Shown: positions 20,127 to 62,651 of the stretch, in pieces
How the letters are laid out: the number at the start of each line of letters is the position of its first letter
How positions within the stretch are numbered: position 1 is the stretch's first letter
From: Lingula anatina
Taxonomy: Eukaryota > Animalia > Brachiopoda
Assembly: GCA_051362555.1 (NCBI GenBank)
Contig: CM120646.1
Location: forward strand, 7,750,001-7,814,000
DNA: 64,000 bases
Reading direction: 5' to 3'
The notes under the pieces: generated by a model
Database searches by the model: none
Seen by the model: the letters and a program-made list of their open reading frames with translations, nothing else
What the model was told of the DNA's origin: nothing
Made by a program: the position numbers and the translations under genes

Positions 20127-20187
20127 ATGAAGGGGTTTCTAGTAGCGATCTGTATTCTGTGCTGCTATAGCACACGCCTAGCTACAG
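20127..20187 (+). CDS. R1 signal-peptide exon
   Basis: ATG context GAGACGATGAAG resembles the R2 leader (GAAGACGATGAAG). Hydrophobic core and phase-1 donor ACAG/gtaggt. Confidence 0.7.
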
Positions 20188-22704
20188 GTAGGTGTAGCCG
20201 GTGTATATGTAGGTCAGCTTAATACACCTGACCCAGCTGTTTGCTTCGTCATTTATAATGATTCGAACGATTAAACTGGTCACGGATTGATTCAAATTAA
20301 GATAAATGGACCTTAGTTTGCTCGCTTTAACTGTAATCAACAAGAGCATCTAATGGTGCGTCAAGTGTTAAACGATTCTAAAACACCGTTAAGAACGGAT
20401 TAAGTTGTCACCTGAATCGACCCTCCCCGTAAAAAATGTTTACGACGAAGGCATTTTCATTCAGGCAACGACGGCGACTGGGTTAAATTGCCTCAGCGTA
20501 GAAATCTACATAACGGTTAAACAGTGTTAAAATTGATTTCGCCTTAGGTATTTGGTGGGGGGGGGGGGGGGTGATGAAAAAGGTTAAACGTTAAATTCAG
20601 TCACGATTATAAAACTCGTTGAAGCCCGCACTCGTGGATAATTGATAAGAGAAAAAAGTGAAACCTGCAAAATAGCAGGGTAAACCCCCTTTCTTAGCAT
20701 CCTGGTCTATCGATTTAAAGCCTGTTAGGGGGTTAGTGATGGACCTTTTCAGTATTAATTCTACCAGCGCATTCCCCTTACGAAAAAAAGTCCTATTGGA
20801 TCCTATACAAAATTGGGCCAATTTCCTATAGAATCCTATGGGATCCTATATAGGACTTTTTCGTAAACTGGTGCCGATAACGGGATGATATACACTGCAT
20901 TTGAGGTCGAGATGGAAATGATTCCGTCTGTGTGAAGCCAGGGCTAAAATTCTGAAGCCTTGACTTATGACCCGTGGCTTCTGTAACTGTCCCTTTTTAG
21001 CAGCTATTGTTTGAGCTACATCATTTATTTCCCTATACTGAGACCGAAATAGAAACAGAATCCGACATCCTGATGTAGGAGAAATTATTAAAACAGCCAC
21101 ACTGTAGTTTAAACAGTTCACGCCAAATGAAAGTGGAGACTCGTGTTTCGATGACTAGGTCGATAAGAAATCATTAAAGCAAATATTAAAGTGATATCGC
21201 TTTAAAAAGGGGTCGCAACTTAAATTAAACGGTTAATAATGAAATGGTCAAATTATGGCAGACCAAAACATGAAGAAATGCTGTTTACACGACAAAAAAA
21301 AAACTTATGCTGCGGCATGCCACGAGCATGAGCACATGAACAATAACCTGGTGCAGATTAAGTCATTAAATCCATATGTAATACAGATATAATCTAGGGC
21401 AACCCTCCCCATACCATTCCATAGTACACTATCTGCCATGTTGGATATCGCGAACGGATTTGATTGGCAAATCGGCCTTGGACTTCAAGTCAAAGTGTAC
21501 AACAAACAATATGACATGAGATTAATATGCAGACCCCTTGGTGTTCAAATAGCGGTGTGCGTTTGTAATTTCTGTCCTACTCAACTGATATGAAATATTA
21601 CAATTAGCTCAATTAACTCTATAGGTCCCAGCGAATAGCAAAATCGAGGCATCAATACTAAAGCAGACGAATTTATCATATTTCGTTTCATGAGTAAAAT
21701 GCAGTCCTCTAGGTGAAATATTGTTGACAAATTGCGTCCAGGTTGGTCGTGAATTAGGTAAAAAAGTGTATTGCATCTTTGGGGAAGCCTGGGTCGCTGT
21801 CGTCCAAGGTCAGCGGTTTTATCAGGGGTGAAAGCTAGGGTAATGGCCCCTAGGGTGTGATGACTGGAGAGAAATACCACTTGAAATGATGACCTTTTTG
21901 TCTGGTTCCACCCCCACCGATCAGCCTCTCTTTGGTAAAACCTGCTTATAATATATCATCAATCTTACGTGTGCAAGTCAATATATCTTTGGAAAAAATT
22001 ACAACGGATGACTGCTCTTTTAGTTCAGCTGAATATAAACCAAGGACGTACTAATATTAATGCTTTCTATAGCCAGAACAAATAAAAGCGAGCACTGAAA
22101 TGCCTGCCCTTGCTAAATCCGATAAACCTTGAGGATATCCTGGTATTAATAGAAAAATAAAATTTCCTGATTCGTTCATCGATAACTTTCAAAGTATTCA
22201 TAAAAAATACAAACCCCTTTCTTCAGTGATATGTTTGTGCCTCGCATTATCATGAAGAAATAAAATCCCACCTGTTTAAAAAAGGTCATTAATATGAATG
22301 TAACTGCATCGAGTCTACTACATTAATATCCATACAGACACTGAATTATTCAGTGTGCCTTTTATAAAATACTGTATCATATGCAATAATATACTTATTC
22401 TTGCATACCCTTTCAATCACATGACCGTGGAGTGCATAAAGAAAACGTGCATTCGAATGCAGGCATTGTCATAGAATGACACACTGCTTATAAATTTTTA
22501 ATTCCATATCGTATCAGTAAATACCATGGCCTCGATCACTTACTAATCAATGTGTTATTCACTGACTCAGCTGGGACAGTGTGTGGTAGAGTAGTCTGTG
22601 TGATAAGATAGGGAATGAGAGGAAGATAACCTTGCTCTGCTAACCTCCACCTTGGGGTTTGAATGTCTCCTATATACTGCCTTTATATCTAAAAAAATCA
22701 ATCT

Positions 22705-22787
<83 letters not shown>

Positions 22788-25700: not shown

Positions 25701-28700
25701 TTTTTTTTATGGCATTAAAATGAATAACTTTTGTAAGCAAAGGGATCGAAGCACAGAGTGTGTAACCTGGTTTTAAATTTAAAAGATGATTCCTCTAAAC
25801 ATTACATAGTAATTAAAAAACGGGCCAATGATTGTCAAGATTAGAATTAAACTGTCACAGATCACTTTTTGTTGAGTTCAATTCAGGTGAACACATCATC
25901 AAAACTACCATTCGGTATTTTCAATTTACAACTCGACCCTTATGCATAATGCTTAAAAGTGCCTACTGTCTACAGAGGCGTCAATTCTATACACAATTTT
26001 TCACTGGACACAGTACAGACAAGTGCATAGAACAAGACAAGAAATAGCTGTGCACATTTAGTAAAAAAACTGGGACCTATTATATATGTACAATCAAAGC
26101 TGCGATGCTCAAGTACAAATGTATCTGAACCGAAGAGCCACGTTTTGTAACCAAAGAAAAATGCGAATACGCATTTTGCAATCAATTTTGTAAGTTTTAG
26201 GTAATTTTTAACTAGAAAGAATTATAGAGAAACCGCTACAGTGAATACATTTTGATATTTGGGGTTGATAGTCGCCTGGTGGGTCTATAATTTTCAGAAA
26301 TAAATATTTGAAAACTTTACTTCTTTGAGCATCCACCTGTACTGCTTTATATAATTGCTTGATTATAATGCTTCGAATATTATAATGAAGGTAGTCTATA
26401 TGCAACTTAAATAAATAATTCATGTTAATGTATTCTACAGGATTACAAGTAACATTAGCTGGTTTGCCTGTCAATGGGTACGTCATGAATCCTGAGGGAG
26501 GCAACCCACAACCACTAAACCTAGTGTGCAGTTACACAGTGGATCCAGGAGAGACGGCGACGTTTGTGACTTTTTTCAAAGATGGAACTGAAACAGCAAA
26601 TCAAATAGTAGCTATAAAGGCATCTGATGGAACTCCCAAGAAATTCAACAGCTATACCACTAGAGCTGATGTGACGGCTTCAGGCTCTGATCCATCATTC
26701 ACGTTAACTATCGGTGGAGTCACCATGGCAGATGAGGGGAGCTATAGGTGTCGTGTTAACACTGATTTCAATGTAGCCACCGTGACAACTGACGAGCAAA
26801 CCCTTAGTTTACTCTGTAAGTATGACACTGTGAAAGAAAAATGGTCAATTTCAGTCCGCAGAAAAACAAAACGATTATTGTGAAATAATGTAATGATAAG
26901 GAGTAGGAGCAGTCTTTACACCTTTAGTTTGTGACTTGGATTTGCGATTGTGTTCGCCAAGTTAACGACTAAAACCATTATTTTCTTGTGCGATTGAAAA
27001 AATACTTGTTGGGAGCACGCATTATAAACTGCCAACGATTTGGCCCGCTTTTATTCTTGACTTTCGCTATTTACGTAGGAGTTTTTTCTCCATCCTGAAC
27101 TTTTTTCAGTGGGGCGAATTATACGAGAAACTGATCATTTTGTCCACCCCAAAATGATTTTCCAGCGAGCTAAGTTTTGAGCACTAATAGTTGTTTCTTT
27201 ACTACCCAGGGCGTGACACCTCAGCCAAATTTAATACTTTCTATCCCTCAGCTGTTCACTGAAAGCATCGTCGGGAGCGTATCTAGACACCGACAGTTGA
27301 GGGAACTTGCATTTCACAGCTCAACATGTATTTTTATGATAGCACTATGAAATCGCGGTTTGAGTCATTAATTCGGCGATTGTAATCATAAACCACATGT
27401 CACCCAAGTGACAAAGGGCGATTTTGTTAATAATTCAGCTAAATAGTAGTAATGAAGCTCACGACAAACGTTCACAAAACACACTCCCGCATGCTGGTTA
27501 ATGTTAGAAGCAAAGTATTTTGAATTCTTTAAATTTCACCATTTTACAGATCGACCAAACCCACCCCAGATTACACGAGGGCCCGAAGTTGCCACAAACA
27601 CCTATCGGGTATCTTGTTCCTCTGACGGCGGCAGACCAGAACCTGAGATAAAATGGTTTAAAACGCAAACTTCTGATCAGATAGAGGTCGCGATAAATGC
27701 AACTGCGAACACAGTGACACCCCAGGGAGACACCTTTCTGGTTGAAAGTGAAGTAGAAGTGATGGCAACCCAAGCAGATCCAGTTGAAGTAATTTGCCAA
27801 CTACTGCACGATTCTCTTACAAGTCAGACCAAGACAAGTGTTATAGTTCCTGAAAGTGCTGGTATGTAAAAGAAATTGTGCATGTACGTGAATTTGCTCT
27901 TTGGTTGACAATCTGTCATATTTAATTGATACAAAAACACAAAAGTAAGATGTCTAGAGATTAAAAGCATGTGTCCAGATAGACACTTTTAGATTGCATG
28001 AATTCTTTTCAAACTGAATTTAAAAAATTCCCATCGCGTTCGTGCCTCATTTTATCGCTGTACATTTCAGATACATTCTGCTTTGCAATAGGCTGTACTT
28101 ATCATTGCATGACTGATGGCTATGATTCCACTTCTTTATGGGCTAGTAATTGATTGAATATTAAGTATTGCTTTATATGCTTTCTTTCAGCGCCATCGAC
28201 TACCATCACAGTAACAACTACAAATTCAACAGGTAGGTGACATTTACAATGCTTTTGCTTCAAAATCTTCTTACTCTTTTTATATTGATTCTAAGATACA
28301 CTTTTTCACAAATCAGAACATACAATCGTTAGACCAACAATCCAAAAGTGGTCAACTGGACATAATACGGTATTTTCTATTTCCACGAAGTCCACGAAAT
28401 TTCAAATTGAATATAATTGAGCACAGCGAACTTCCACATTGCTGCTATTCAGTGCATTGCAGTTTAGAGACTTGGCTTTTAGGTTTGTCTTAAAACCAAT
28501 GCACCCAAGAATTTTTATTTATCTTGCCATCTTAGTTATTAAAAGGCACGTAACTATCGTTCTGGTACGACTGATTACAGCTGAGTTTTACCCATTGATA
28601 GACAATTAAACAATTCTACTTTTTACTCCATTAGCAATTACTAGATGTTTGCCTTTTCTGCCAAATATTTGTTTGCAAAATTATAAAGCTTCCCAAAAAT

Positions 28701-31107
28701 AGTAATAGAAATAACTTTGATGACTGTTTCATTTCCAATTAGACAAAAACCCGGGGTCTGATCGAAGCACTGCTCCTCTTGAAGGCGGCGCAGTGGCAGG
28801 CATTGTAATAGCTGTGCTCATCATCGTTGCAATCATAGTGGGCGTGGTCGTGTTCCTCGTGAGGAGGAGGAGCGCGGAACCAAAGCAGCCTAAGGAGGAG
28901 CAGACAGGCGCAGAGAACCCAGCGGCCTCACAAACCGGTAAGTGGTGCTGATGGAATATTTTAACTGCACTGTTTGTGAAGTTATTTAATTAAATAATGT
29001 AGGTCTGACTGTGATGAGATATGTCTGGACTGCCCCGCACTTAACACGTCACCTTCTACTAAATGTTTCAAAATAGAATCAACCCTTGAACAGAGCTTTC
29101 GTGGGATCATTTTTGGTACCCGCTGATATTTCAAAATTAAGCGATTATTCACTGAAATTGCCTGTGAAATTTATGTGTATATATCCGGATTTATAAATTA
29201 TGTTACTTCTTTCAACTTTAAAAAGACATCCCTTTGCAGTCTCATTTTTTAAATCAATGGGTCTTTCTGCAACGATATCAGAACTGCATCTACACAAAAT
29301 GTTAACTTGTAATGCTGAAGCAGTGGAACTGCTCCTTAATCATAACAGCTATACCTTATAAATTATCAGCATCTTCAGCTTTCTAACCAGCAACAATCTG
29401 AAGTAAACGCGGAGAACATTTTTCGAAAGCTGTCTACAATTTCTATAACTTTAGGGAGCTCATCATACGTTCCATTACTTTTCAAAGTAAAAATTACAAG
29501 CATTATAACTTTACAAACATACCTTATGTGGTCAAAGAAGCGATATAGCACAGATAACAGCCTATCGAAGAATCTTAAAGGGATAATAACTCTTCGTTTT
29601 GGCCAAAAAATGAATTTTCCTGGAGTAAACAACAATTTTCCCATACTTACCAATGGTTAATGAATCCATTTTTACATTCAAAGTTAGTCCCTGTTTTTTT
29701 TCTAAAAAGTTTGGTTTTTTGTTAAAATCTCTTAAGAGATTATAACAGAGTACAGCCATCAATGGAGGCCACGTGGTCTGAAGACAAGCTCATATATCAG
29801 AATAATAGCTATAACTGCCGTTTTTGTGGTAAAACAGAATATATTATATTTCTATGAGTTGTTCACAATGTTTTTATTGTGAAATATTGATATCATATGA
29901 AGAGTTATTATCCCTTTAAGTAAAAGCAGCACGTTCTTTGAAAATAGATATTTTTAAAAGATTAAAGGTACATGTGACGTAAACGCTTACCCAACCATGC
30001 TTATCCATTGGTTCTTCTCCCTCAGATGTTCGTGGAGGAAACACAAACCCAGCTTATCCAGGTATCACATGCTCATCAGCATATTTATTTGCGGTTTAGT
30101 TTCCAATCAATCTGCTGATCGTAATATAATTATATGCTATTCAGTTTCGAAAATCTTTGGTTACGGGTTCCTTCTCTGCAGTTTATTTTGGTTTACGACC
30201 GGTTGTAAGCATAAGTGTGACGAGTAGCTACGTACAGGGGTCCATCGACAGATTGAGTCTGTTCGTCCCACTTATATAGCTTACAACCTGCGTATTTTCC
30301 CTTTGCTGATAGGCTCGTTTTAATGACATTGTGCACGTACAGATTTGACTTGATTTTTGGTTATGGGTTTGCATTTTATTAACTTTCTTTAACTTTTACA
30401 AATTTTTGAATCTGTTACTAATATAAATATGGTTGCATTATAGAATCCACCCTTTTTTATCTTAGTATTTCTTAGAAATGCATCTTTTTAGACAGTATGT
30501 TCATTTGTAGTACAACACAACACAAGAATTTTCTGGACTCTGTATATTCATCGCACTAACATGCCTATAAAGCTAGCACCAACAATTTGACACGTAATCA
30601 AAAGAAGAGATTATTTACAATAGAAGTGCGTGTCACTTGCTTTACGTCTGTGCCTAAATTACATTACATGTCACGTACTTGAGCACACACCAAATCAATA
30701 AATGATAGGCAGAAGAATGGCAAATACTGTGCTTTTTATTAGAATATTCACTGTTCGTCTAATAATTATTGATATTTTGATAATAAGAAGTGTTTGAAAA
30801 TCATGTTTTTTAAATGTATTTTGATCAAAGATATATGTTTTAAAATCACATGAACGGGCACAGCATTCGAGATGGTACGCTAGAGAATAGCCTAATTATT
30901 CTTTTTAAGTATCGATATGCATTTTTCCTTCAGACCAAAGAGACGAGAAACCCCCAATTGAGGAATACAAACCTGAACCAACAACGTAAGTACTTTTTTT
31001 CCAAATTTTCCTATGAGCATATTAAACTATGAGCATTTAAATGAGCATATTGAAACGGGAGTTAATAATTATTAAGAAGAATTTTTTTATTTATCTGTAG
31101 GGTGTAA
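20127..31107 (+). CDS. R1: type-I membrane IgSF protein (V-set + C-type Ig, stalk, TM, NPxY and PDZ-type tail), CTX/JAM/nectin-like architecture, 359 aa
   Basis: Exons, all GT-AG and in frame, total 1080 nt: 20127-20187 leader MKGFLVAICILCCYSTRLAT; 26441-26815 V; 27550-27861 C; 28191-28232 APSTTITVTTTNST; 28743-28937 TM GGAVAGIVIAVLIIVAIIVGVVVFLV-RRR; 30026-30061 DVRGGNTNPAYP; 30934-30985 DQRDEKPPIEEYKPEPT; 31101-31107 TV-stop. The leader link across a 6.25-kb intron is the least certain part. Confidence 0.85.
20775..20866. mobile_element. Short palindromic MITE remnant
   Basis: TTACGAAAAAAAGTCCTAT...ATAGGACTTTTTCGTAA inverted ends with internal repeated GGATCCTATA-like units. Confidence 0.5.
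22707..22784. repeat. Compound (CT)n(CA)n microsatellite
   Basis: Directly visible. It produces the SLSL/THTH and RERE/CVCV ORFs. Confidence 0.95.
25201..25316. repeat. Tandem duplication, 64-bp period
   Basis: AAACATATCTATCGAAATAATTCCATTTTCTACTTTAAAGCGTAAAAACTT occurs at 25201 and 25265. Confidence 0.9.
26441..26815 (+). CDS. R1 V-set Ig exon
   Basis: 375 nt, phase 1-1. B-strand Cys (LVCSY) and FTLTI...DEGSYRC V-set signature. Confidence 0.93.
27550..27861 (+). CDS. R1 C-type (CD80/nectin-like) Ig exon
   Basis: 312 nt, phase 1-1. CSSDGGRPEPEIKW...VICQLLH. Confidence 0.92.
28743..28937 (+). CDS. R1 transmembrane exon
   Basis: Not in the ORF track. Acceptor ttag and donor G/gtaagt. Long hydrophobic run with GAVAG (GxxxG) followed by an RRR stop-transfer. 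Confidence 0.9.
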
Positions 31108-31904
31108 AAGCATCATGTCCTCAACGCCATAACTTGTGATAAAGAGATCAGCAGTGACTTTATACAAAGACAGTAGGACCTGCCCGGCAAAGACCATTGT
31201 GGACATTATGATGTCACACGTGACGTCATAACGTCCCCATAGCAACAGAGTGGGTTGTGAATGAGTAAGCCTCGACGAGTTTTCCTCCAGTCTAACGTCT
31301 GTTGGGGTGAACTAAACTGTAGTTGCTTCTTTACATTCTGAAGATTTCCCGGCAAGGGGGAAGATCATTTTGAAGATGTGTATTGCTCAATCACAAGTGT
31401 GTAAATTACAAAAACGGAGGAGCAGATTTAGAATGATTTTTAACGGATTTTCTACTTCTTGCATCGTCATGACAGCGGCAACGGAAGGCTACAGAATGTA
31501 AATTGAGCACTGGGAAAAAACTGCCAATTGTAATTTTATATTGAAAGAAACAACAGGTCGTTTTGTCAAGTTTAATTTTTTCAATATGACATAAGAATTC
31601 GTTTGTCTATCGTTGCAGTTGTTTGAGTAGCTATATTGTTTAATTTGTTGGTTACAAATTAGGTATGTTTTTTTGAGTTAGACGTCAAAGACGCTAGTTT
31701 TAAATGTTTCAATCTCTGGGGATAGTTATTAAGATGGAGAAAAATCTGCTTTGTTACATACATTCCATTCAAGCCCATTTATGTCTTTTTATTAGTAAGA
31801 AAGGAGTGTGACATGGAGATGCGATGCCCCTACCGGTCCCTTTTAGGACCGTGTCTATTTTTTGTGAAATTATTGTATAGAGAGAAAAGAACCAGATGTC
31901 CGAG

Positions 31905-31961: not shown

Positions 31962-32884
31962 ACAAGTTGAACGCCTGGACGATGTAAATGTGACTGTATG
32001 ATTATTTGTCTGATTGACTTGCAAGAATATTTTGGTAAGGAACGTGCCATTTCTGATGTATAATATTTTATAATAGATAATATTTCTGTTTACAGTTATA
32101 GAAAAAAAGATAAGCGATAAAGAAAACGTATTGGCGTGTATGTTATTAAATAATTTCTAACCAGCAATGTCTTATATTTCTAGGCCGAAAATGTTTTGTT
32201 ACATACTCCTTTTATTTTCATGCATATATTTTGGCTTGAGGTTTGGTAGTGTGATTTTTTCCCTCCATCTTAGTTCACTTTTTAAGTTGAATGATTTTGT
32301 CACATAAACATCTTATATTACATTTATGCTATGGCTAACTTGCATTCAAAAGCATAGGTTGTTTATAAACCAGCATTAACGTGTAAAAACTGTAAAAATG
32401 GTCTAAATTGTTAAGTGGTCATCACACATGTAAATACCTCATGTGATGAGGGTATTGCCAATATAAATCTAGAAATGAAGAGGCAGTAATTAAAGTGGCG
32501 TATTTAACTCGATACGTAAGTTAAGCAATGATACACGGTTGAAATATGCGAGGATTGTTTGTATCTCGCCATAGCTGTTAGTCACCTTAATTCCTGGTTC
32601 CTCTGTGTCAGACAGATATTAATAATGAAAAGAGAACATAATCCTATGTTTAGTATACACATCATTATTCAAGACCTACTGGGGTTTGCTGGATTGGAGA
32701 GTTTCACAATAATCACTTAATTATGCAATCATAACTTGGATCAATGTACTTTGGTTTATTAGCAGAATTTCTAATCATATATGTTACTACTATAGGGGCC
32801 TACATGATTATAAATACATTGCCTACTTTGCCTGTGAAAGTTCAAACTGACCTGACCACCCCGCTTTCTGCATTAGTAAACTTA

Positions 32885-33456
32885 GAGCGCATTCTCAACG
32901 AATTAAGCCAGGCTTTACAAAGCCGGTGACCTAAAAATGGCGGACGTACATGAAAGAAAAACCGCCTAATCTTTTAATAGTCTCTCCGCCTCTCACACGC
33001 CTCCCCACACGTCGTCCCTGCGGGGTACAGTAATTAAATCTCGGCTCCGAACATTAATATTTATATTAATATTAATTAATATTAATATTTAGTGAATATC
33101 TCTGGTGATATTATCTCCTTAGATAGTCGATTCATTGCTGCTCTACGGGCCAAATTATTCCTTTTTCGTCTCTGTTTTCAAAGATAATAGAACAGAAGAG
33201 CTTTTTTTTTGGATCGCCTTCAGCCGCTATGCCTTCTTCACCACGAGTTTAACTGATGAGCATGCGCACTTAATATTTCTCAGGTAGCTTCCGCATGGCG
33301 AACGGAGCCGAGATTTAATTACTGTACCCCGCAGGGACGACGTGTGGGGAGGCGGAGAGACTATTAAAAGATTAGGCGGTTTTTCTTTCATGTACGTCCG
33401 CCATTTTTAGGTCACCGGCTTTGTAAAGCCTGGCTTAATTCGTTGAGAATGCACTC
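32885..33456. mobile_element. PIF/Harbinger-type MITE with long TIRs
   Basis: Near-perfect ~155-165-bp TIRs starting GAGCGCATTCTCAACG / ending CGTTGAGAATGCACTC. 3-bp TSD TTA (32882-32884, 33457-33459). Confidence 0.88.
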
Positions 33457-35680
33457 TTAGGTACCAGTCCCAGTCGCCCGAATTTGCTTGCAGAGTCCGT
33501 AGTTTCATACTGCCTATCCCGATGTGACATTCCCAATTAATTTTTGAGTGATTTTTATTGTGATGTCTACTTTGTATACATAATTATAACATTATACTTT
33601 CAATTGAAAGAAATTATTAGTTTTTGTACGAATTGTGATTAGGTAGCTATTGTTATTAAATATTTGTAAAAAATAACATTATTGTTTTGATGTTCATATA
33701 CATGTACTCCTGGGTTTGGGGCTATGTGTTAATATAGGGGCCATGGAGAGTGTCTTAGTAAAAAAAATTAGGACACAAAATTTTCATATCTTTTTATAAT
33801 GATTCAGTTTCTAAGTGTAATGTTAACACAATTAACGCCACCAATTGTCTCATTTACAACATTTTAAAAATTCCAGCTTTTAAATCTCTGCTTATAAGCT
33901 CTATAGGGCATCCAAAATGTCAAAGGACTTTACAATACATATTTCAGAAATATCAAATTAAAACAAATTAAGTAATTCAGACGCAATAACTGTCTTATTA
34001 AAATAACTTCCACTTAATGACGTACAAGTAAAGAATTCAAATACAATATCTAATTTTAAATGCTACGATAAGAAGACACTTGAATTATCATAAGCAAAAC
34101 GGGAATTTGTTATCTGTGATGTGGGGGTTTATTTAAAACTGCCCAGTTCCTTACCCGTACTTATAGAAAATCTGGTAAAACCGTAAAATTTTCCACATCT
34201 TTGAACAAAGGTCGTTTATGCCCGTTCATCAATTCTAAGACAGACGGCTATATAGCACTACAAAACAATCCTTGTAATCGACGACGTGATATATGTTATC
34301 TTAAAGGTTAGAAATCATGGTAAAACAATGTCAAATATTTAGCTGATGATCCGGGGGACAAATACACTGTATTCACTACATACTGAGTTAAGGACAAATA
34401 CTCCGTTAGTAAAAAACTATAGACAAATACTTCGTCAGCCAGAATCAGCTCAAAACCCCTTTGTACAATGTTGAATTTAAACCACTGTTATATAATACCC
34501 TGTTTAGTTTCAAACAAAGCATGGTCATTTTGCATGATAACGTCATATCAACAGTTTGAGGTGAAAGTGTTAGTTTCGGTTTCTTGATTGATTCACCTAA
34601 GCTCATATCATATAAATCCCAACTGTCAGTAGGGCTGCGTGTGAGTATACATCCAACAGGTGACCGATTTTCTTTCCATTGCCCCCTGTAAATTTCCTTT
34701 TTTAATTTTTGTATGAATATTTCTTATTGTGATAAAACTAATGATGATTAATCCTTTTAAAAAGAAATATATCAAAACAAATGCTACAGTCAAGATAAAA
34801 ATCCAAGCTAGCCATATCTCTACAAAGGCAAGGAGAACACACCAAGGAGAATCCAATTAATTACATTGTTATTATAACAACCTATGGATGAATACACCTT
34901 TTATTTATTATATTGTTTATTGGCGATTAAAATTTTTCTTACAGAATGTTATTCTGTTTGTTAGCCCTAATTCACTTTGACAAAAAATTATAATTGATCT
35001 TCAACCTTACATTCTAAAACAGAGCCATTAGTTGACCAAGTTATAAGTATTGGTGATTGATGCCAATCAGCCTGGTAGATGTGCCATGTCATTACTAGAG
35101 AGTTAACCTTAGTTTCTGACACCCAGCTGATATGATATCTTAATTCAATATTATACAATATTAAAATATTTTTGATCGCAATCATTCATTTACTGGAGTT
35201 ACATATGTAAAAAGCACAAATCTTTATTTATATACAACCATAATACTACTATACAGCGTGAGTCTACAACCATAATACTACTATCCAATGTGAGGTTCAA
35301 GATTACCAAACCTGTGCATTTCTAAATAATTTCCTACTATAAAAGGGGTTAATATTTAGCCCTTAGACGTGAATTCATTTATTATTCAATACACTCACTC
35401 CAGCAGTATAGCTGTAAAACTGAGTAGCCTAGGGATTATCCTCGGGCAGTTAGGTGCTATTAGAGGCACACGTTAAGAGGTTCCTGACTATAACACAACG
35501 ATAACACTGCCACAAAATGTGGAGTTCAAGATCACTAAATCTGCTCACTTCTAGATTATTCCCTATATTAGGGTTAAATCCTTCTTTCCTAAGACATATA
35601 ATCTAATACACTCACTCACTTGGCCACTTTTGAATTGTCTAGGCTGGGGATCATCCTAGGAAACCTCAATGTAATTATAG

Positions 35681-36045
35681 TCACCAATAACATTTGGGGC
35701 TTTGGACGGCAATTGATTCCATATATTGCCCATCTAGACGGTTATCCCGCCGAAGTTCTTGGTAACTATTCGCCAGTGCAGTATCGTCGAAATCCATATT
35801 GACCCCATCAAAACCAGAGGAATGATATGTCGATCGCTGTGTAGACACCTGGTAAAATGGACTGCTGATGTTGTTTGAGTGTTCTGTTACATTGTTTGTA
35901 ATAACAGTGGCATGTTGCTGTTCAGATGCTTGTGATTCGAGTCTCCTGGACAATGACCGAATGCGGAATACAAGGTATGCAATTATGCAAAAAAGACACA
36001 TTGCTAACACGATCAAAACGATCGATACGGTTCTCCAAGCATTGC
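35681..36045 (-). CDS. R3 TM + cytoplasmic terminal exon (single intact YxxL)
   Basis: Acceptor tattacag, phase 1. Reads GNAWRTVSIVLIVLAMCLFCIIAYLVF-RIR...NSYQELRRDNRLDGQYMESIAVQSPKCYW-stop. Clear paralogue of 57547-57923. Confidence 0.85.
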
Positions 36046-39561: not shown

Positions 39562-39901
39562 ATCTTTTGTTCTACGCGCTAGCTTTGGTTTAAATTTGGA
39601 TGTTTTGGTGGAATTTATACCTGCATCCATATGTCTATGTCAGGTAAAGCGTGACAATTGAATTAAGCCAACGATCGAGTAATTAATGATTGTGTAGAAA
39701 AGATTTATCAACAATTTACTTCGAATTGCACCTACCTAGCGCATTTGTAGATTTTGCTGTGCTGTAAGTTGAGGGAGCTGAAAAAAACAAAGAGGCACTA
39801 ATTTTTCAACGGATAACTTGCCTAGAGAAAAGTAATTGTTACCATACCTCATGGGTAGCCTTGACTACCCCCGTGCGAAGAGAAATGATTCAAAATGTGA
39901 A

Positions 39902-42708: not shown

Positions 42709-43020
42709 CAGCACTTTCAGGCACAGTGGTTTTTGTCGTGATCTGACTTATAAGTGAGTCGTGTAGTAGCTGGCAAATCAATTCCACTGGATCTGCCTGG
42801 GTTGCCATCACTTCAACTGCACTTTCGACAAGAAAGGTGTCTCCCTGGAGTGTCACCGTGTTCGAGGTTGCATTTATCGGCACCTGCATCTGATCAGAAG
42901 TTTGTATTTTAAACCATTTTATCTCAGGTGCTGGTCTTCCGCCATCAGAGGAACAAGTCACCCGGTAGGTATCTGTGGCAACTTGGGGTCCTCGTGTAAT
43001 TTGGGGAGGGAACGGTCGAT
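42709..43020 (-). CDS. R3 C-type Ig exon (membrane-proximal)
   Basis: 312 nt, phase 1-1, open. RPFPPQITRGPQVATDTYRVTCSSDGGRPAPEIKW...LICQLLH. Confidence 0.9.
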
Positions 43021-43129: not shown

Positions 43130-44385
43130 AACACTGTTTATTAGTCTATCATATTAAGTGATTATTCCCCGACAACCTGCGGAGTTTTAAGGTTTAATGT
43201 GTCTGTCAATAGAAGATCTTGACAAATTTTCGTCAAGCGTTTTTGGTAAGTGCGACAACGTTTCTTTCTTTAAAAAATCTTGCGGAGATACAAATGCATG
43301 TTTTTGGACTAGACCGATTTTAGTTCGCACTCGAAAGAGATCACATCATAATCTGATAATTGCGTTTAAGAAAACAACTTTTAGGGTAGAAAGGGCTTAT
43401 ATTCTGATCGTAAAGACCTCGAAGGTTTAAAACTTAAGATATGTATTTCATTTTTAAGAATCTGCATCAACTTTTTTTACGACCGCCTCTCCTCCCTGTT
43501 GATTCTATCATAATGTATTCATGCTTTATCTGAAAGAAAAAACTAGAAATTTTTGAAAAATTTCTCTTATTTAGTCATTACTTTAGATAAAGACTTTTCT
43601 GGGCCATCAAGCATCACAGTCGTATCGTCTGCGTATCGAGTTAATAAAATAGGGGTGTTATCAATAGTGATAATTTTTATATTTTTGTTATTCTTGAGTA
43701 TTATTGAGAGTTTTTCCGCGCATAAAATAAACAAATAGGGGGCTATTGGGTCTCCCTGCCTGCAGCCTCTTTTAATCTAAAATTACTCTGAGAGATTGCC
43801 TCCTTGATTTATTGCTGCTTGGGCACCCTTTTTTTAAGTATTTATCCATTTGGTAATGCTTGCACCAAAGTTTAAAAAAAATTAGTACCCTGTTAATAAA
43901 CTTTTTCACAACATAGCGTCAAAGGCCTTTTCAAAATCTAATACAATGTAGCACTAACATTCCAGGAATATGGTTATCTTCTGTGTATTGCATAATATCA
44001 TATACAGCACGGATACTTTCCTCGATGTATCTCCCTGGAATAAACCCGCACTGATCGTCTGAAATAAGTTTGCCCAGATATTTCTTGACTCTGGTTGCTA
44101 TGACCCCGAAGGTTATTTTATAGGTAACGTTTAACAAAGAGATCGGTCTCCAGTTTTTCAAGTTTTGCTTGCTGTGGCCAGAATACGTTGAAGAACTCGA
44201 CAGTTAACCCGCCTGAGCCTGGACTCTTCTTACTTTTCTTTTTTTCCAGAATGTTGGATGCTTCGTTTAGACTAATTACACCTTCTAGTTCACTTGACTC
44301 CACATCTTTGAGCCTCAATGAATAATTGTGCGGTAGGATTGTACTTAAGTCAACATCAATCACTTCACTAGACTCTGCAAATAAC
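43130..44385 (-). mobile_element. L1/Tx1-type LINE reverse transcriptase remnant
   Basis: Frameshifted RT motifs: KSPGSGG, NWRPISLLNVTYKI, DQCGFIPGR, LDFEKAFD, RGCRQGDPIAPYLF, YADDTT. Confidence 0.85.
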
Positions 44386-45251: not shown

Positions 45252-45626
45252 ATACTAATTTGAGTTTCTGTGCCGAAGATATTGCCATGGGATTATTGAG
45301 TATGGTGGAAACTTTACAGTAATAGCTCCCCTCATCTGCCGACGTGACTGTGCCAATTGTCACCGTGAATGATGGATCAGAGACTGTAACCATCACGTCA
45401 GTTCTAGAGGCAAAAGAGTTCTGCAGCTGGTAACTACCGTCAGATATCACTATTCCCACTATTTGGTTTGAAGCGGTCGTTCCATTTTTATAGAAATACA
45501 CGACCTGCATCGTCTCTCCGGGATCCACTGTGTAACTGCACACAAGGTTCACAGTTGGTGGGATGCCGCTGTCGGGATTCATGACCAAGCCATAAGAAGG
45601 TAAATCAGCCAGTGTTACTACTAACC
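45252..45626 (-). CDS. R3 V-set Ig exon (divergent)
   Basis: 375 nt, phase 1-1, open. LVCSYTVDPGETMQVVYFYK...DEGSYYC. No leader exon found between it and the stalk exon at 47263. Confidence 0.9.
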
Positions 45627-47262: not shown

Positions 47263-47304
47263 CTGCAACATTAGTAGATTTCGTAGTAGTGGTAGTTGAA
47301 GGAG
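47263..47304 (-). CDS. Ser/Thr stalk exon APSTTTTTKSTNVA
   Basis: 42 nt with ttttag acceptor and G/gtaggt donor. Paralogue of 59543-59584 and 28191-28232. Confidence 0.85.
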
Positions 47305-47551: not shown

Positions 47552-47863
47552 CTGCACTCTCAGGCACTGTAATACTTGTCTTGGTTTGACTTGTCAGTGA
47601 ATCGTATAATAGTTGACAAATTACTTCAACTGGATCTGCCTGGGTTGCCATTACTTCTACTTCACTTTCGACAAGAAATGTGTCTCCCTGGGGTCTCACC
47701 GTGTTCGCAGTTGCATTTATGGCCACCTCCATCTGATCAGAACTCTGCATTTTAAACCATTTTATCTCAGGTGCTGGTCTGCCGCCATCAGAGGAACAAG
47801 ATACCCGGTAAATTTCTGTGGCAACTTGAGGTCCTCGTGTAATCTGGGGTGGATTTGGCCAAT
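47552..47863 (-). CDS. C-type Ig exon
   Basis: 312 nt, phase 1-1, open, close to the other three C exons. Confidence 0.9.
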
Positions 47864-49455: not shown

Positions 49456-49510
49456 CTTTAGTTGAATATGGAGCTGCACAGAGCAGCACATAAAGACACT
49501 ACTCCTTCAT
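49456..49510 (-). pseudogene. Leader exon with nonsense mutation
   Basis: ATG AAG GAG TAG, whereas the paralogue at 55638 has ATG AAG GAG TGG. The rest of the exon is identical and the donor is intact. Confidence 0.85.
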
Positions 49511-51972: not shown

Positions 51973-52347
51973 CAAAAACTATAAGGTTCTGTGGCGATGA
52001 CGTCACAGTATTCTGTTGGAAGTTCAGGACAACTTTACAGGTATAATTTCCTTTGTCAGAATACTGCAGAGAGGCTATTCTGAGAGTATATTGTGGGTCA
52101 TTGGTATTAACTTCGACATCGGATCTACCCTGGTAACTGTTCTGTTTCGCAGAAGCTCCATCTGCTACTTTAACTACTGCTATTTGATGAGCAGTGTCGG
52201 CACCATCTTTGTAAAATATCACATATTCTGCAGGCTGCGTGTCGGAGCCTAGGTCGTAACTACACACAAGTTGAGCCGACGGAGCCGCAGCGGCTTGGTT
52301 CATAAGGTATCCATTGGGATTCACTCCAGACAAAGTCACTGTCAAAC
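51973..52347 (-). CDS. Most divergent V-set Ig exon (no adjacent C exon)
   Basis: 375 nt, phase 1-1, open. QLVCSY...YVIFYK...YTLRIASLQYSDKGNYTC. Acceptor attttag, donor G/gtaagt. Confidence 0.88.
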
Positions 52348-52644: not shown

Positions 52645-52755
52645 TCTTTTTTAAAAACCTCAACACTGTCAATAGTCCGAATGTATGAGGGTAGTTCATT
52701 CCATAAAATGGGTGCTGCAATTGAAAATGCCCTGTGGCCCTAGGTTTTAGTTGTT
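52645..52755 (-). mobile_element. L2/CR1-type LINE 3' remnant
   Basis: GHRAFSIAAPILWNELPSYIRTIDSVEVFKK matches the L2 ORF2 C-terminal motif. Confidence 0.7.
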
Positions 52756-54925: not shown

Positions 54926-55023
54926 GTGTAACTACACACAAGGTTTAAAGGTTGTGGGGTACCTCCCTCAGGGTTCATGACGTAACCACTTGGAAGGCAA
55001 GCCAGCTAATGTTACTTCTTACC
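54926..55023 (-). pseudogene. Truncated, inactivated V exon
   Basis: Homologous to the start of the R2 V exon, but the acceptor AG is lost, TTA is changed to TAA, there is a 1-nt frameshift, and homology ends after LVCSYT. Confidence 0.85.
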
Positions 55024-55583: not shown

Positions 55584-55638
55584 CTTTAGTTGAATATGGA
55601 GCTGCACAGAGCAGCACATAAAGACACCACTCCTTCAT
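55584..55638 (-). CDS. Intact leader exon MKEWCLYVLLCAAPYSTK (putative start of R3)
   Basis: 55 nt, phase-1 donor AAAG/gtagga. Paralogue of 62597-62651. Confidence 0.82.
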
Positions 55639-57546: not shown

Positions 57547-57923
57547 TTAAATGTAATTATAGTCACCAATACCATTTGTGGCGGTAGACGGCAATAGGTT
57601 CTCTCCAAGTTGCATGTATTGCCCATCTGAACGGTTATCCCGTCGAAGTTCTTCGTAACTATTCGCCAATGCAGTATCGTCATAGTCAACATGAACCCAA
57701 TCAAAACCAGAGGAATGATCTGTCGCGCGATTCATAGATACTTGGACATTGAATGGACTGTTAACAGTGTTTGTAATAACACTGCCATGTTGCTGTTCAG
57801 AAGCTTGTGATTTGAGTCTCCTGGACAATGACCGAATGCGGAATACAAGGTATGCAATTATGCAAATAAGGCACATTGCTAACAACGATATCACAATGAT
57901 TGATACTGTTCTCCCATCAATGC
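57547..57923 (-). CDS. R2 TM + cytoplasmic exon with YEEL-x9-YMQL and terminal YNYI
   Basis: GIDGRTVSIIVISLLAMCLICIIAYLVF-RIR...VDYDDTALANSYEELRRDNRSDGQYMQL...GDYNYI-stop. Confidence 0.87.
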
Positions 57924-60900
57924 CTGTAATACAAAAAATATAATTTAAATGGGTTGCCAAGTATAATCCTTTCTGATTTTTGTTAACTGAAACATAATAT
58001 ACCCAGTGGTACGACCACACTAAAATATTCACCCGGAATGTCTAATGATCTACAACGTTCACATTTAATTTATAAGGATGGCACAGAAGCATAGTTAGTC
58101 GGATGAGAGTGTCCCAGTACCAAGAAAAGAGGGTGATGAATACAGATTATCGAGTAGAAGTTATCTGACTTTTGTCAACTGAAACATAATATACACATTG
58201 GTAGCACCACTGTAAAATATCAACCCGGAATGTCTTATGATGTGCCACGTTCACGTTTATGATACCGAAGCATGGTTAACCGTATGAGAGTGTCCCAGTA
58301 CAAAGAAGATTATCAAGTAGAAGTTCACGGTCGGTTACCAAAGCCCCCACCCCGCCCACCCCTTCAACCAACAGGTACTGAGTACTGTACACCTCAGTTT
58401 GTGTTCCGCAGTGCTCTTGGTTTAATTACATGTTGTTGTAGTTGGAGACACTGCAAATGTGATATAAGAGAAATACAAAACAGACTATAAATGAATAAAT
58501 TAATATGTAACCAAGTATATTCCCTGAAAAATAATTAGCGTCACCTAAACTGACTAAGATTGTTTGCATTACAGCTGGAAAGGTTGTGGTGGAATGTAAA
58601 CCTGTATGATCTTCCAATTGGCTATGCCAGATAAAGCGTGAAAATTGACTTAAACTAACGAGTACTTTATGGTTGGCTTGAAAAGTTTTTTATCATATTT
58701 TGAAGCAAACGAAAACAATTTACTCCGAACTGCACCTACCTCCTGTAGATTTTGCAGGTTTGTTAGCTGAGAGAGCTGAAAAAACATAAAGAGGCACTTA
58801 TTATTCAATCGACTACTTGCCGAGAGAAAACTAATTATAATCCTTGCATCATTGGGGGCTTGTCGATCCTATTGCAAAGAAAAATAATGCAGAAATGTGG
58901 AGCAATAAAATAAAATAAAATATGAACGAGTGAGTGTTGGAGTATATTTTTGGTATCGGAACTCTCATAGATCAATGTGACTATATTATTTTAAATAATG
59001 CCAACTTTCAAGAGTTGAAAGGCTTTTTGGTTCACTTTTTGAAGGACATTTACATTTAAAACTTAATGTTTAAGGCACTCTATTCGCCGTTTACCTGCCA
59101 AATTGACTTTTCCTCTGAAAACGACAATTTTCACTTACTAACAAATCATTGACGGCACTTGGAATCGGGGTTTCATTCGATTTTAGTTTGATTTGTTTCT
59201 AAATAAGTCACCAGTTATTTAGAAAGCTATGTCATCTTGTATATTTCAAAAATAACAACCGACGTCAAGCACTTATATTTCAGGGGTTTTTATATAGTTC
59301 TTAACGTAAGAATTAGACTTTGAATTATTTCAAAAGTGTACATTTTATTTTACTTTTAATTCTACGCCCAAGTAGATAAACATATAATGAATGCACGGAT
59401 GTGCATTCCATGTAAATAGGTAAAACCGGATAAGGCATGAGAAATGAATGGGGGACTTAATACGTCCATTCTTTTTTATTAGGACAAATAGTTTTAAAAT
59501 GAAGCAATTAAGAAAAATAAATGCATCATAAATTGTACCTACCTGCATCATTAGTTGATTTCATAGTAGTGGTAGTTGAAGGAGCTAAAAAGGGAATTCA
59601 GTCACTTCTTAAGATATGTGATAATAATTGTACCTCATGTAGGCCTACATCCATGAGCCAAGAAGAATGATTCAGAAAAGCAGTAAAACGAGCACGCACA
59701 AGTATGGTGTTGAAATATGTTTTACTGAGTATGTTACAAACAAAGATATAAGCTCTTTGCGGTAAAGTTAAGGCTTTTCCAGTAGACTTGCCCTTCAAGA
59801 AATCGACGGAAAATAGCTCTTTTTCAAATTTGAATGGGCACTGTAGAAAACATATAACAGCTAAAGCTCTCAAATTAAGCACATATGTGTGATATCATGT
59901 GAAGAATAAGTTCTGTAAATTTCAATCCAAGCAGTTCAGTACATTTTGAGACAGAACGCTTTAAATGTGCAGCAAACCGTAACGCTTATCCCTTCAAGAT
60001 CTCGACGAAAACCGGAAGTGCGTCATGACGTCTCTCACTTCTACTTGGAAAGCTGCTGGGTGATTTTCCGATGAGAAATATTTCGTGACTCATACAAATG
60101 TTCGGAAAATGACCATGCAGATAAAAGAAAATTCACTAATCAAAACTGAAACTGCGTAATTACATAGAAAAACATTGTGCATTCCTAACCTCGACTTGTC
60201 AGTGTAAACAAAGTGTACTGAACGCATCGCAAGCAAGCACGAGAATGCCGCGTTTGATACTTTGTATCAGACGCTTCGTTTTACTTGACAACACAGTGTT
60301 TACGATGGGCATGACAGGAAAAACAGTGCAAAAAACACGCACTTCCGGTTTTCGTCGATTTCTTGAAGGCGTCGATTTCTTGAAGGGCGAGTCTACCTTA
60401 TTTTGGTCCGCAAGTGAAATGAAATGAACAAACTACCAATCCGAGTAAAATACACAAACCAAATATACATACCAGCACTTTCAGGCACTATAACACTTGT
60501 CTTGGTTTGACTTGTCAGTGAATCGTGCAGTAGTTGGCAAATTACTTGAGCTGGATCTGCATGGTTTGCCATCACTTCTACTTCACTTTCCACCAGAAAG
60601 GAATCTCCCTGGGGTGTCACCGTGTTCGCTGTTGCATTTATCGCGACCTCCATCTGATCAGAACTTTGCATTTTAAACCATTTTATCTCAGGTGCTGGTC
60701 TGCCGCCATCAGAGGAACAAGATACCCGGTAGGTGCCCGTAGCGACTTCAGGTCCTCGTGTAATCTGGGGTGGGTTTGGTCGATCTACAAAGTAGTAAAA
60801 TTTTAAATTACATATGAAATCAAATCTTTGCCACTTAACCAAACCAATGAAATCATATGGTTTCAAAAACATAGATATAACAAATGTTTTCGTCGAATAC

Positions 60901-62651
60901 ATTCAGAATATGATATTTAAGGAAGTAGGTTCTACTTTCTATTTATGCTACAGTATATATAACCCTTTGTTGTTTCCATCAATAATCATTTGAATATTAA
61001 TGTAATTGCTTGTGCAATAATAATGCGCTACACATTACTACTTTATTTGGTGGACTTTTACGAACCGGAGTCACGGATAAACAGAGTAAGTTTACGACCA
61101 GAATATTTTAGAAGGTGCAGTTATAAAGTTTTGCTTTGGCTGACCAAGTGATTTATTAAGTTTATCCTTTGTCAACTTTGTCAACTTTATCCAATGTCGA
61201 CTCTCTTTGAATCATATAAGAAACTAGTCGAAATTGTTATTATGCGTTATAGGGAACATACGCTTGCTTCAAACATGTATGTAATTTAAACATAATACAG
61301 CAGACGGTGCACTTAAAACATTCAAGATGTATGTGAGTCATGCCAACATTTGGTATTAGTCTTTAAGTTGACCCATTCAGAAAATTTACACCTGCATATG
61401 ATTACTGGTGAAATAGAAGTGATAACACCTAGTAGGAGGTGCAGGCAATCATAGTCTATCAAGGTCTAATGTACAACCTCTAATGGAAAACGCTTTATTA
61501 ATATAATTTTAGGATGTTGGTCCATGCCTACTTAAATAGTAATGACTTCCTCCTTTTCTTCTAAATTATGATCAACTTTCAATACTTTCTCTCTATGGAC
61601 AGAAATCAAACATGCTAATACTTCAGTGATTTACTTACAAAGTAAACTAAGGATTTGCTCGTCAGTTGTCACGGTGGCTACATTGAATTCAGTGTTAACA
61701 CGACATGTATAGCTCCCCTCATCTGCCATGGTGACTCCACCGATTGTTAACGTGTATGATGGATCAGAGGCTGTGGTCGTCACATCAGCTCTAGTTTCAT
61801 AGCTGTGGAGTTTCCTGGGAGCTCCGGTGGATACCCGTATTACTACTATTTGGTTTGCTATGTCAGTTCCATCTTTGAAAAAAGTCACATACGTGGAAGT
61901 CTCTCCAGGATCCACTGTGTAACTGCACACAAGGTTTAGTGGTTGTGGGTTGCCTCCCTCAGGATTTATGACGTACCCATTGGCAGGCAAACCAGCTAAT
62001 GTTACTTCTAACCCTAAAACAGGATACATCTTTCATTTAAATGACAAATGTAGCTTCTCCACTTATATTATCAAAAAAGAATAGAGATATTTATGTTACC
62101 GTGGGAAGCATTCAAGCCTGGGACGATTGGTTTGAATCTTTAAATGCTAGTTATCTGCATTTGTTTTCTTGTTTGAACGGAGACGGATATTGAACCGTTG
62201 TTATTATGCCGGTGTGGTTTAGGAACTTTATCAAGGTTTCACCAGTAAAATGAGGTCATGACTGTTTATCTGAATTTCTGCAATGACATCCATCTTAATT
62301 CAATCGACTGCTTAGCATTTATACCAGGAAGTAATGATGAAATCCGTCCCTGCCAAAATGAAGCTTTTTTATTTACTTTATATCCCTTGCAGGGTAATAA
62401 TGAAAAGAGTTATTATGTTCTCTTTTTTTTTTTTTTTTTTTTTTTGATGAGGAAAATATCATTCTGTTGATAAATCGAGTCGGGGGGTTGAGGAGGACGC
62501 ATACCCCGGTATCTATGACCAAGAAGAAGCTGAAATAATTTTAAGATGGCTCACATACTTTGAAGCAGCGTACATTGCAACACTTTTACTTCCTACCTTT
62601 AGTTGTATATGGAGCTACACAGATCAGCACATAAAGACACCACGTCTTCAT
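57547..62651 (-). CDS. R2: type-I membrane IgSF receptor (V + C, stalk, TM, ITAM-like tail), 386 aa
   Basis: Exons 62651-62597 leader MKTWCLYVLICVAPYTTK; 62013-61639 V; 60784-60473 C; 59584-59543 APSTTTTMKSTNDA; 57923-57547 TM and tail. All GT-AG phase 1, total 1161 nt, open. Confidence 0.87.
59785..60393. mobile_element. Non-autonomous TIR element with TA TSD
   Basis: TIRs GACTTGCCCTTCAAGAAATCGACG / CGTCGATTTCTTGAAGGGCGAGTC flanked by TA. Empty site in the paralogous intron at ~47480. Confidence 0.82.
60473..60784 (-). CDS. R2 C-type Ig exon
   Basis: 312 nt, phase 1-1, open. Confidence 0.92.
61639..62013 (-). CDS. R2 V-set Ig exon
   Basis: 375 nt, phase 1-1, open. LVCSY...DEGSYTC. Confidence 0.92.

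What the first reader, a model, noticed from the sequence alone, without database searches (positions are those of the whole stretch)
20127..62651. Candidate invertebrate paired/decoy Ig-receptor system: one ectodomain, two unrelated signalling tails
Seen: R1 (+) and R2 (-) have closely similar V and C exons of identical length. Their leaders are diverged and their TM/tails are unrelated: R1 has a multi-exon tail with NPAY and ...PTTV-COOH, while R2 has a single exon with YEEL-x9-YMQL. The genes converge in inverted orientation. Established: vertebrate paired receptors (CEACAM1/CEACAM3, SIRPalpha/beta, Siglec-5/14 and 11/16) share ligand-binding Ig domains but differ in signalling, and Hydractinia Alr genes are clustered V-type Ig receptors with tyrosine motifs. 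Inference: R1 is a cell-surface/junction protein, and R2/R3 are activating mimics or self/non-self sensors. I do not recognise this family; novelty is unverified.
Basis: partly seen in the sequence, partly recalled or inferred. Interest (0 to 1): 0.9.

Follow-up and report, generated by a model that had tools for sequence, protein, structure and literature searches.

The report
Brachiopod paired receptors share hypervariable ectodomain
In a brachiopod, a cell-surface immunoglobulin protein whose predicted binding face differs sharply between genome copies sits opposite near-identical twins with an activation-type (ITAM) tail, and the twins likely act as decoys that catch microbes exploiting it, as CEACAM3 does in humans.

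Summary
Database hits name the animal as Lingula anatina. R1 (+) is V-C2-stalk-TM with a PDZ-type end; RNA shows six junctions directly and the leader junction indirectly. R2 (-) has the same V-C2 with an ITAM tail. R3 is a five-domain composite with a half-degenerate ITAM.

New here:
(1) R1's likeness to R2/R3 stops at exon edges, with a 101-nt identical tract: a gene-conversion signature.
(2) R1 differs between this assembly and RefSeq at 50 of 257 ectodomain columns and 0 of 103 elsewhere; neighbouring R3 differs at 5 of 750.
(3) 9 of 13 residues of the predicted R1 homodimer interface differ between the two versions.
(4) RefSeq relatives add GPI-type members and a third ITAM gene; R3 carries V domains matching three non-ITAM relatives.

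Against: R1 has no ITIM; pN/pS on the variable face is about 1; R2's C-to-TM joint was not seen in RNA; this assembly's full R1 version was not seen in RNA; no ligand is known.

It works like a CEACAM1/3/5 decoy system but is not a CEACAM. No description was found in ten literature searches.

The parts
20127..20187 (+). R1 leader exon
   Evidence: 20 of 20 residues identical to RefSeq XP_013384543; leader letters seen as loose end on V acceptor in 65 reads of X7
26441..26815 (+). R1 V-set exon V1 (hypervariable)
   Evidence: Pfam V-set E 7e-9; 102 of 124 identical to RefSeq R1; joint 26815-27550 in 3 of 4 runs
27550..27861 (+). R1 CD80-like C2-set exon C1
   Evidence: Pfam C2-set_2 E 2.6e-8; 87 of 103 identical to RefSeq R1
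28191..28232 (+). R1 Ser/Thr stalk exon
   Evidence: joints on both sides in X7 and X8
28743..28937 (+). R1 juxtamembrane + TM + start of tail
   Evidence: extracellular start differs from RefSeq at 8 of 15 residues, TM 25 of 25 identical; helix 284-308 in model
30026..30061 (+). R1 tail exon with NPAY (optional)
   Evidence: joints seen; missing from RefSeq isoform X2
30934..30985 (+). R1 tail exon
   Evidence: joints seen
31101..31108 (+). R1 last coding bases, completing PTTV-stop; 3' UTR follows
   Evidence: joint 30985-31101 in 3 of 4 runs
35681..36045 (-). R3 TM + tail exon (YQEL-x9-YMES)
   Evidence: 121 of 121 identical to XP_013384541; RNA depth on the expected strand, which may include R2/R4 reads
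39736..39777 (-). R3 stalk exon
42709..43020 (-). R3 C exon C5
   Evidence: 104 of 104 identical to RefSeq
45252..45626 (-). R3 V exon V5 (subtype shared with XP_013384545 and XP_013384533)
   Evidence: 97-104 of 124 identical to their V domains, 69 to V1
47263..47304 (-). R3 stalk exon
47552..47863 (-). R3 C exon C3
   Evidence: 91 of 103 identical to C1
48506..48880 (-). R3 V exon V3 (R1 subtype)
   Evidence: 107 of 124 identical to V1; 101-nt identical tract with V1
49456..49510 (-). dead duplicate leader exon (stop at codon 4)
51973..52347 (-). R3 V exon V4 (subtype of GPI-type XP_013386296 / XP_013390921)
   Evidence: 115 and 117 of 124 identical to their V domains, 47 to V1
54926..55017 (-). 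truncated, frameshifted V fragment
55584..55638 (-). R3 leader exon
   Evidence: 18 of 18 identical to RefSeq
57547..57923 (-). R2 TM + tail exon with YEEL-x9-YMQL
   Evidence: open frame; covered in X1 and X7; joined to C and stalks in RefSeq model XP_013390914
58740..58775 (-). R2 second stalk exon
   Evidence: 13 of 13 identical to XP_013390914
59543..59584 (-). R2 first stalk exon
60473..60784 (-). R2 C exon C2
   Evidence: 93 of 103 identical to C1
61639..62013 (-). R2 V exon V2
   Evidence: 101 of 124 identical to V1; V-C joint in 3 reads of X1, cross-mapping from R1 possible
62597..62651 (-). R2 leader exon
   Evidence: same leader as XP_023930103; R2/R3-type leader joined to a V2-like exon in 3 reads of X7

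Best explanation
R1 is a transcribed V-C2 surface protein, predicted to pair with itself through the front face of its V domain, and R2 and R3 are ITAM-tailed twins that likely serve as decoys for microbes that grip that face. Shown: gene anatomy, opposite orientation, exon-limited likeness, ectodomain-only divergence of R1, and transcription of both gene types. Inferred steps: (1) R1 is a junction or adhesion protein anchored through its PDZ-type end; (2) a microbe binds its dimer face, which favours new R1 versions; (3) gene conversion between the facing genes copies V and C exons, keeping the twins matched and feeding R1 new residues; (4) binding to R2/R3 on phagocytic cells leads to tyrosine phosphorylation, Syk or Shark recruitment and uptake; (5) R3 would cover three non-ITAM relatives at once through its three V subtypes.
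For: Exon-limited likeness: exons 88-92% identical, while the 28 intron bases upstream match at 29-54%. blastn finds no R1 intron homologous to any R2 intron, though all 5 R2 introns match R3 introns. R1's only intron hit is to the intron after C5, yet C1 is nearer C2 (dS 0.23) than C5 (0.45). A 101-nt identical V1/V3 tract has p=0.0004, and V2 differs at 11 of those bases. R1 versus RefSeq: 50 of 257 ectodomain columns differ, 0 of 103 others; R3 5 of 750; published genome heterozygosity is 1.6% (PMC4595640, passage). 18 of 22 V differences lie in the C-C'-C''/F-G half, p=0.0009. 9 of 13 predicted dimer-interface residues differ, p=0.0009 within that half. Dimer score 0.37, best of 3 controls 0.00, runs agree in at least 85% of contacts, pLDDT at least 89; the mark was reached by 21 of 30 solved pairs and 0 of 23 single chains (animals 7 of 16). 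Same-locus V pairs (102, 105 of 124) are no closer than cross-locus pairs (101-111). Listed RNA differences are 21 replacement to 8 silent in the ectodomain and 0 to 7 in TM and tail. These features match the paired-receptor criteria in PMC5112662 (passages). An oyster Ig receptor with an ITAM recruits Syk (PMC6994640, abstract and section 10).
Against: R1 has no ITIM. pN/pS on the variable half is 0.72-1.06 among V1, V2 and V3, so positive selection is not shown. The AU test did not reject the two R1 versions as one clade (p=0.061), nor the two R2 versions (p=0.49). Only 2 of 7 exon pairs had a significant identical tract, and the V mosaic test gave p=0.07. R2's C-stalk-TM joint was not listed in RNA. 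At most listed V sites nearly all reads in X7 and X8 carry the non-window base, so this assembly's full R1 version has no RNA support. The RNA animals also differ at silent and UTR sites and may be another population or cryptic species. RefSeq 'R2' lies on another scaffold and differs at 14 of 124 TM/tail residues, so it may be a paralogue. The dimer pass may come from memory of solved nectin-like dimers. R3's ITAM is half degenerate. No ligand, cell type or Lingula Syk was examined.
Confidence: 0.5

Rival explanations
1. Self/non-self sensor. R1 binds only like versions of itself, as Hydractinia Alr1/Alr2 do, and the ITAM twins fire when they meet an R1 version on foreign cells of the same species or on damaged cells. 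No microbe is needed.
For: The two R1 versions share only 4 of 13 predicted interface residues, while each shares 6-9 of 13 with the ITAM-gene V domains. Variant-specific homophilic binding of Alr1/2 and ITAMs in Alr tails are stated in bioRxiv 10.1101/2022.03.04.482883 (passages).
Against: Lingula is solitary and has no natural fusion behaviour (recalled). R1 has no inhibitory motif to hold the ITAM genes back. Exon copying into the activating genes risks self-activation and is better explained by tracking an outside ligand (inference).
Confidence: 0.25
2. Ordinary tandem Ig expansion. Inverted genes convert each other as a by-product, exposed V residues drift under weak constraint, old haplotypes or cryptic species explain the divergence, and the tyrosine motifs serve endocytosis or general signalling.
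For: pN/pS about 1, not above. TM and tail also differ at silent sites in RNA. C domain, stalk and juxtamembrane differ too, not only the V face.
Against: Neighbouring R3 is 745 of 750 identical between the same two assemblies. Differences concentrate on the predicted interface beyond the rest of the exposed half (p=0.0009). Three separate V subtypes each occur in both an ITAM gene and a non-ITAM gene.
Confidence: 0.17
3. Assembly artefact. One of the two R1 versions is a chimera with R2-type reads, and gene counts reflect uncollapsed haplotypes.
For: The window's V1 is closest to RefSeq R2 (111 of 124); its full version was not seen in four RNA runs; RefSeq splits R2 into two models on a separate 154-kb contig.
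Against: Eight differences lie in the same exon as the invariant TM, which has no close paralogue in the window. 16 of 21 replacement changes in RNA give the RefSeq residue, so that version is real. X1 carries window bases at some sites (26446: 8 of 9 reads; 26780: 9 of 21). An artefact would not remove the R1/R2 pairing itself.
Confidence: 0.08

Closest known systems
CEACAM1 / CEACAM3 / CEACAM5-6 (and Xenopus Ceacam pairs)
   Same: One cluster with a TM adhesion protein, ITAM twins and GPI-type members; V domains 80-93% alike; conversion limited to exons; opposite orientation; variation on the CC'C''FG face (PMC5112662 passages; PMC8860441 and PMC11646289 abstracts).
   Different: No orthology shown: only a weak generic Ig hit to CEACAM6 (E 0.005); V has both cysteines; R1 has a PDZ-type end and NPxY instead of an ITIM; the C exon is shared too; R3 stacks three V subtypes; no pathogen known.
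Nectin / CADM / JAM-CAR (CTX) / B7-butyrophilin V-C2 proteins
   Same: V-set plus CD80-like C2-set; best fold match nectin-4 D1-D2, E 3e-12, 22% identity; Atlas neighbours CD96, MCAM, nectin-3, butyrophilin; PDZ-type end; predicted front-face dimer.
   Different: Two Ig domains plus a stalk rather than three; the V core Trp is replaced by Phe; orthology not shown; close relatives found only in Lingula.
Hydractinia Alr family
   Same: Invertebrate cluster of polymorphic V-type Ig proteins with divergent tails, some with ITAMs (passages).
   Different: Alr V domains lack the cysteine pin and most have an Fn3-like fold; some Alr tails have ITIMs; the host is colonial.
Botryllus Fester family and FcoR co-receptors
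   Same: Invertebrate Ig-superfamily clusters with activating-type motifs and haplotype variation (PMC12582321 passages).
   Different: There a receptor pairs head-to-head with a separate co-receptor; 'gene conversion' occurs 0 times in that text; the host is a chordate.
Oyster CgIgR; Biomphalaria PTC2
   Same: Lophotrochozoan ITAM-Syk Ig receptor for bacteria (PMC6994640); hyperdiverse clusters of single-pass proteins linked to parasite resistance (PMC7494358, abstract).
   Different: In the parts read, neither is described as a twin of a non-activating protein kept alike by conversion.

Membership tests
Paired receptors (criteria from PMC5112662) | Same gene cluster, opposite orientation | tested here: met
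   R1 on +, R2 and R3 on -, within 43 kb
Paired receptors (criteria from PMC5112662) | IgV domains 80-93% identical | tested here: met
   101 and 107 of 124
Paired receptors (criteria from PMC5112662) | Gene conversion limited to the exon | tested here: met
   no R1-R2 intron homology, dS 0.13-0.16 in V, 101-nt tract; silent changes are few but not absent
Paired receptors (criteria from PMC5112662) | Replacement changes gathered on the CC'C''FG face | tested here: met
   18 of 22; 9 of 13 predicted interface residues
Paired receptors (criteria from PMC5112662) | dN/dS above 1 | tested here: inconclusive
   0.72-1.06 on the front half among three paralogues; no DNA for the RefSeq versions
Paired receptors (criteria from PMC5112662) | Activating member with ITAM | tested here: met
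   YxxL-x9-YxxL in 3 of 4 tails, within the x6-9 consensus quoted; motif only
Paired receptors (criteria from PMC5112662) | Inhibitory member with ITIM/ITSM | tested here: not met
   no ITIM pattern and no Yxx[LIVM] in the R1 tail
Paired receptors (criteria from PMC5112662) | Shared pathogen ligand and split cell-type expression | not testable with these tools
   run tissues are not given; no binding data
CEACAM family | Sequence kinship; N domain without the disulfide (recalled) | tested here: not met
   Cys50 and Cys124 present; CEACAM6 ranks 34th of 36 PDB hits
Nectin / CADM family | V-C2 fold with front-face dimer | tested here: met
   (predicted; may reflect memory of solved dimers)
Nectin / CADM family | Three Ig domains V-C-C (recalled) | tested here: not met
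   R1 has two
Nectin / CADM family | Orthology by phylogeny | not tested
   no tree with vertebrate sequences was built
Hydractinia Alr | V domain lacking the cysteine pin; Fn3-like domain | tested here: not met
   cysteines present; no Fn3 family in the Pfam scan
Hydractinia Alr | Variant-specific homophilic binding | not testable with these tools
   only one version was folded as a dimer

The most novel reading that the evidence does not exclude
A spiralian independently built a full CEACAM-like decoy system: an adhesion protein with a hypervariable dimer face, GPI-type relatives, and ITAM twins kept in step by exon-limited gene conversion, including a composite receptor (R3) that mimics three different host surface proteins in one chain. 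It would show that paired-receptor logic and domain shuffling arose in protostomes, and that it does not need an ITIM partner.
Probability: 0.4. Interest if true: 0.88.

Novelty: new variant of a known kind. Interest (0 to 1): 0.74.

Why it matters
The paired-receptor paper I read lists only vertebrate families; the invertebrate ITAM-bearing Ig clusters I found described are in a colonial cnidarian and a colonial tunicate. A case in a solitary brachiopod would separate this design from colony fusion and from adaptive immunity, and point to convergent evolution under microbial pressure. It is directly testable: two defined R1 versions, a 13-residue predicted interface, and matched ITAM twins allow allele-swap binding and phagocytosis assays. 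The composite R3 suggests a way to guard several surface proteins with one receptor.

Tried and rejected
An apparent inversion of C5 was my misreading of BLAST strands. Reads on V4 in X7 carry residues of the GPI-type paralogues, so they were rejected as proof of R3 expression. The EF-hand gene failed as a second divergence control: its exact sequence is not in the collection. The 21-nt R3 mini-exon of RefSeq isoforms X1/X3 was not located. Metagenome scan: 141 pattern matches, none confirmed. Rfam: 0 matches. Viral fold search gave generic V-C matches led by CD200-like proteins at 12-20% identity, not informative. AU tests did not reject locus clades. Earlier findings of this scan: nothing in 3 look-ups. 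A paper on brachiopod immunity that I recall from a subscription journal is not held and may mention these genes. Literature searches; none listed a paper on this cluster, and searches returned 0 papers. No supplements were read.
Full report
What is there. Self-comparison and translation show one gene on + and two on - built from 375-nt V exons, 312-nt C exons, 36-42-nt Ser/Thr stalk exons and TM exons, all in compatible phase. R1 is leader-V-C-stalk-TM plus three tail exons, ending NPAY ... PTTV. R2 is leader-V-C-stalk-stalk-TM/tail with YEEL-x9-YMQL. R3 is leader-V4-V3-C3-stalk-V5-C5-stalk-TM/tail with YQEL-x9-YMES. A dead leader (49510) and a broken V fragment (55017) inside R3, and R2-R3 intron homology of 68-89%, show that R3 was assembled from R2-like duplicates. 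Pfam gives V-set and CD80-like C2-set. The AlphaFold model (mean pLDDT 75.6, most Ig-domain blocks 79-94) is closest to nectin-4 D1-D2.

Organism and family. All four hits to V1 among longer proteins, and the one among near-length proteins, are Lingula anatina RefSeq models with automatic names. Among 1.84 billion representatives, the full-length close relatives I looked up are again Lingula; of 8 looked up, 5 were Lingula, and the others were a cod protein, a limpet protein and an unnamed one with generic Ig or TM matches. The ITAM-tail exon found only two proteins of 218 residues or more, both Lingula. RefSeq adds a third ITAM gene (XP_013384528) and members ending in a hydrophobic stretch with 0-2 residues after it, which I read as GPI signals (XP_013384545, XP_013386296, XP_013390921, XP_013384547; no GPI predictor was run). 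V4 of R3 matches one GPI-type group at 115-117 of 124, V5 matches another group at 97-104, and V3 matches R1 at 107, while the subtypes match V1 at only 47 and 69. Some RefSeq models may be alternative haplotypes, so the gene count is uncertain.

Transcription. In one search (85% likeness; 15 of 95 joints shown) six R1 joints appear; X1 reads on R1 exons come from one strand only. The leader joint shows as a loose end. Rough depth was 83, 68, 16 and 1 on R1's TM exon and 10, 13, 2 and 0 on the ITAM-type TM exon in X7, X8, X1 and X4. These figures come from coarse bins and pool the ITAM genes. At 93% likeness R2's TM exon had depth about 1 and 3 in X1 and X7 and none in X4 and X5; the best 140-nt window against R3's TM exon is 91%, so most such reads are not from R3. 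No C-stalk-TM joint for R2 reached the 3-read bar, and none for R3 was among the rows shown. That link rests on frame, splice sites and three RefSeq models whose evidence I did not see.

Gene conversion. V1 has dS 0.16 and 0.13 to V2 and V3, and 50 of 56 and 53 of 58 fourfold sites are identical, yet no R1 intron aligns to an R2 intron; R2 and R3 have similar dS (0.15) and their introns align readily. C1's downstream intron matches that of C5, while the exon is nearer C2. V1 and V3 share 101 identical bases (p=0.0004) where V2 differs 11 times. Weaker results: only 2 of 7 pairs had a significant tract; runs tests gave p=0.07 (V) and 0.02 (C); AU tests gave 0.061 and 0.49.

Divergence of R1. 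Against RefSeq R1, 50 of 257 ectodomain columns differ and 0 of 103 leader, TM and tail columns; R3 differs at 5 of 750. Eight differences lie in the same exon as the unchanged TM. Of 2331 RNA difference rows, 40 were shown; I dropped 4 UTR rows. The 36 coding rows, each base taken alone, give 21 replacement and 8 silent changes in the ectodomain and 0 and 7 in TM and tail (Fisher p=0.0008); 16 of the 21 give the RefSeq residue. This is a selected subset, paralogue reads can contribute, and the RNA animals may be a distinct population. It shows the RefSeq version is real, and that the window's version is the unusual one.

Where the differences sit. 18 of 22 V differences fall in the half made of strands C, C', C'', F and G with their loops; on strand C positions 62, 64 and 66 vary while 63 and 65 do not. 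A homodimer prediction passed: 0.37 against a best control of 0.00, at least 85% contact agreement, pLDDT at least 89; calibration 21 of 30 pairs and 0 of 23 single chains, animals 7 of 16. It may reflect memory of solved dimers. Nine of its 13 interface residues differ between the two R1 versions (p=1.6e-5 over the domain, 0.0009 within the front half). pN/pS there is only 0.72-1.06 among paralogues.

Mechanism. I commit to a decoy model (0.5). R1 is likely a junction protein whose dimer face a microbe exploits; new versions escape; conversion keeps ITAM twins matched so that phagocytes would take the microbe up through Syk or Shark. Every functional step is inferred by analogy with CEACAM1/3 (PMC5112662 passages; PMC8860441 and PMC11646289 abstracts) and oyster CgIgR (PMC6994640 abstract and section 10). 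PMC5978004 (passages) reports Syk-like kinases in invertebrates that have Bcl10, but the passages shown do not state it for Lingula. The self-sensor rival (0.25) fits the same interface data. Neutral expansion (0.17) and artefact (0.08) remain.

Known versus new. It works like the CEACAM system and meets most published paired-receptor criteria, but it fails the ITIM test and is not a CEACAM, an Alr or a three-domain nectin. Invertebrate Ig clusters with ITAMs are known (Hydractinia; Botryllus). Ten searches of the held library listed no description of this cluster or of conversion-maintained decoy pairs in a lophotrochozoan; subscription papers are largely missing from that library. Verdict: real, a new variant of a known kind, interest 0.74.

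Noticed in passing
window 10255-10794 (-): Single-ORF EF-hand protein of about 180 aa (Pfam EF-hand_7 E 1e-17); exact sequence not in the protein collection.
   Followed up: partly
window 13719-14069: 66-bp tandem array, 5.3 copies, 99% matches, open in two long frames and flanked by an inverted copy.
   Followed up: no
window 43934-44203 (-): Reverse-transcriptase fragment (Pfam RVT_1 E 5e-8) in the R3 intron between V5 and C5.
   Followed up: partly
window 29575-29920: Short element in an R1 tail intron with RNA depth of 1,000-6,000 and many unrelated loose ends: a repeat common in other transcripts.
   Followed up: no
window 32881-33460: Inverted repeat with about 170-bp arms in R1's 3' region; RNA reads jump across it.
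   Followed up: no
window 30934-30941: X7 and X8 read 22 letters in place of 7 at the start of this R1 tail exon, a 15-nt in-frame gain not in the window or RefSeq.
   Followed up: no
window 17-757 and 1939-2682: Direct duplication of about 750 bp at 74% identity.
   Followed up: no
window 26443-26814 (+) and the other V exons: All V domains of the family have Phe in place of the core Trp of the Ig pin while keeping both cysteines.
   Followed up: partly
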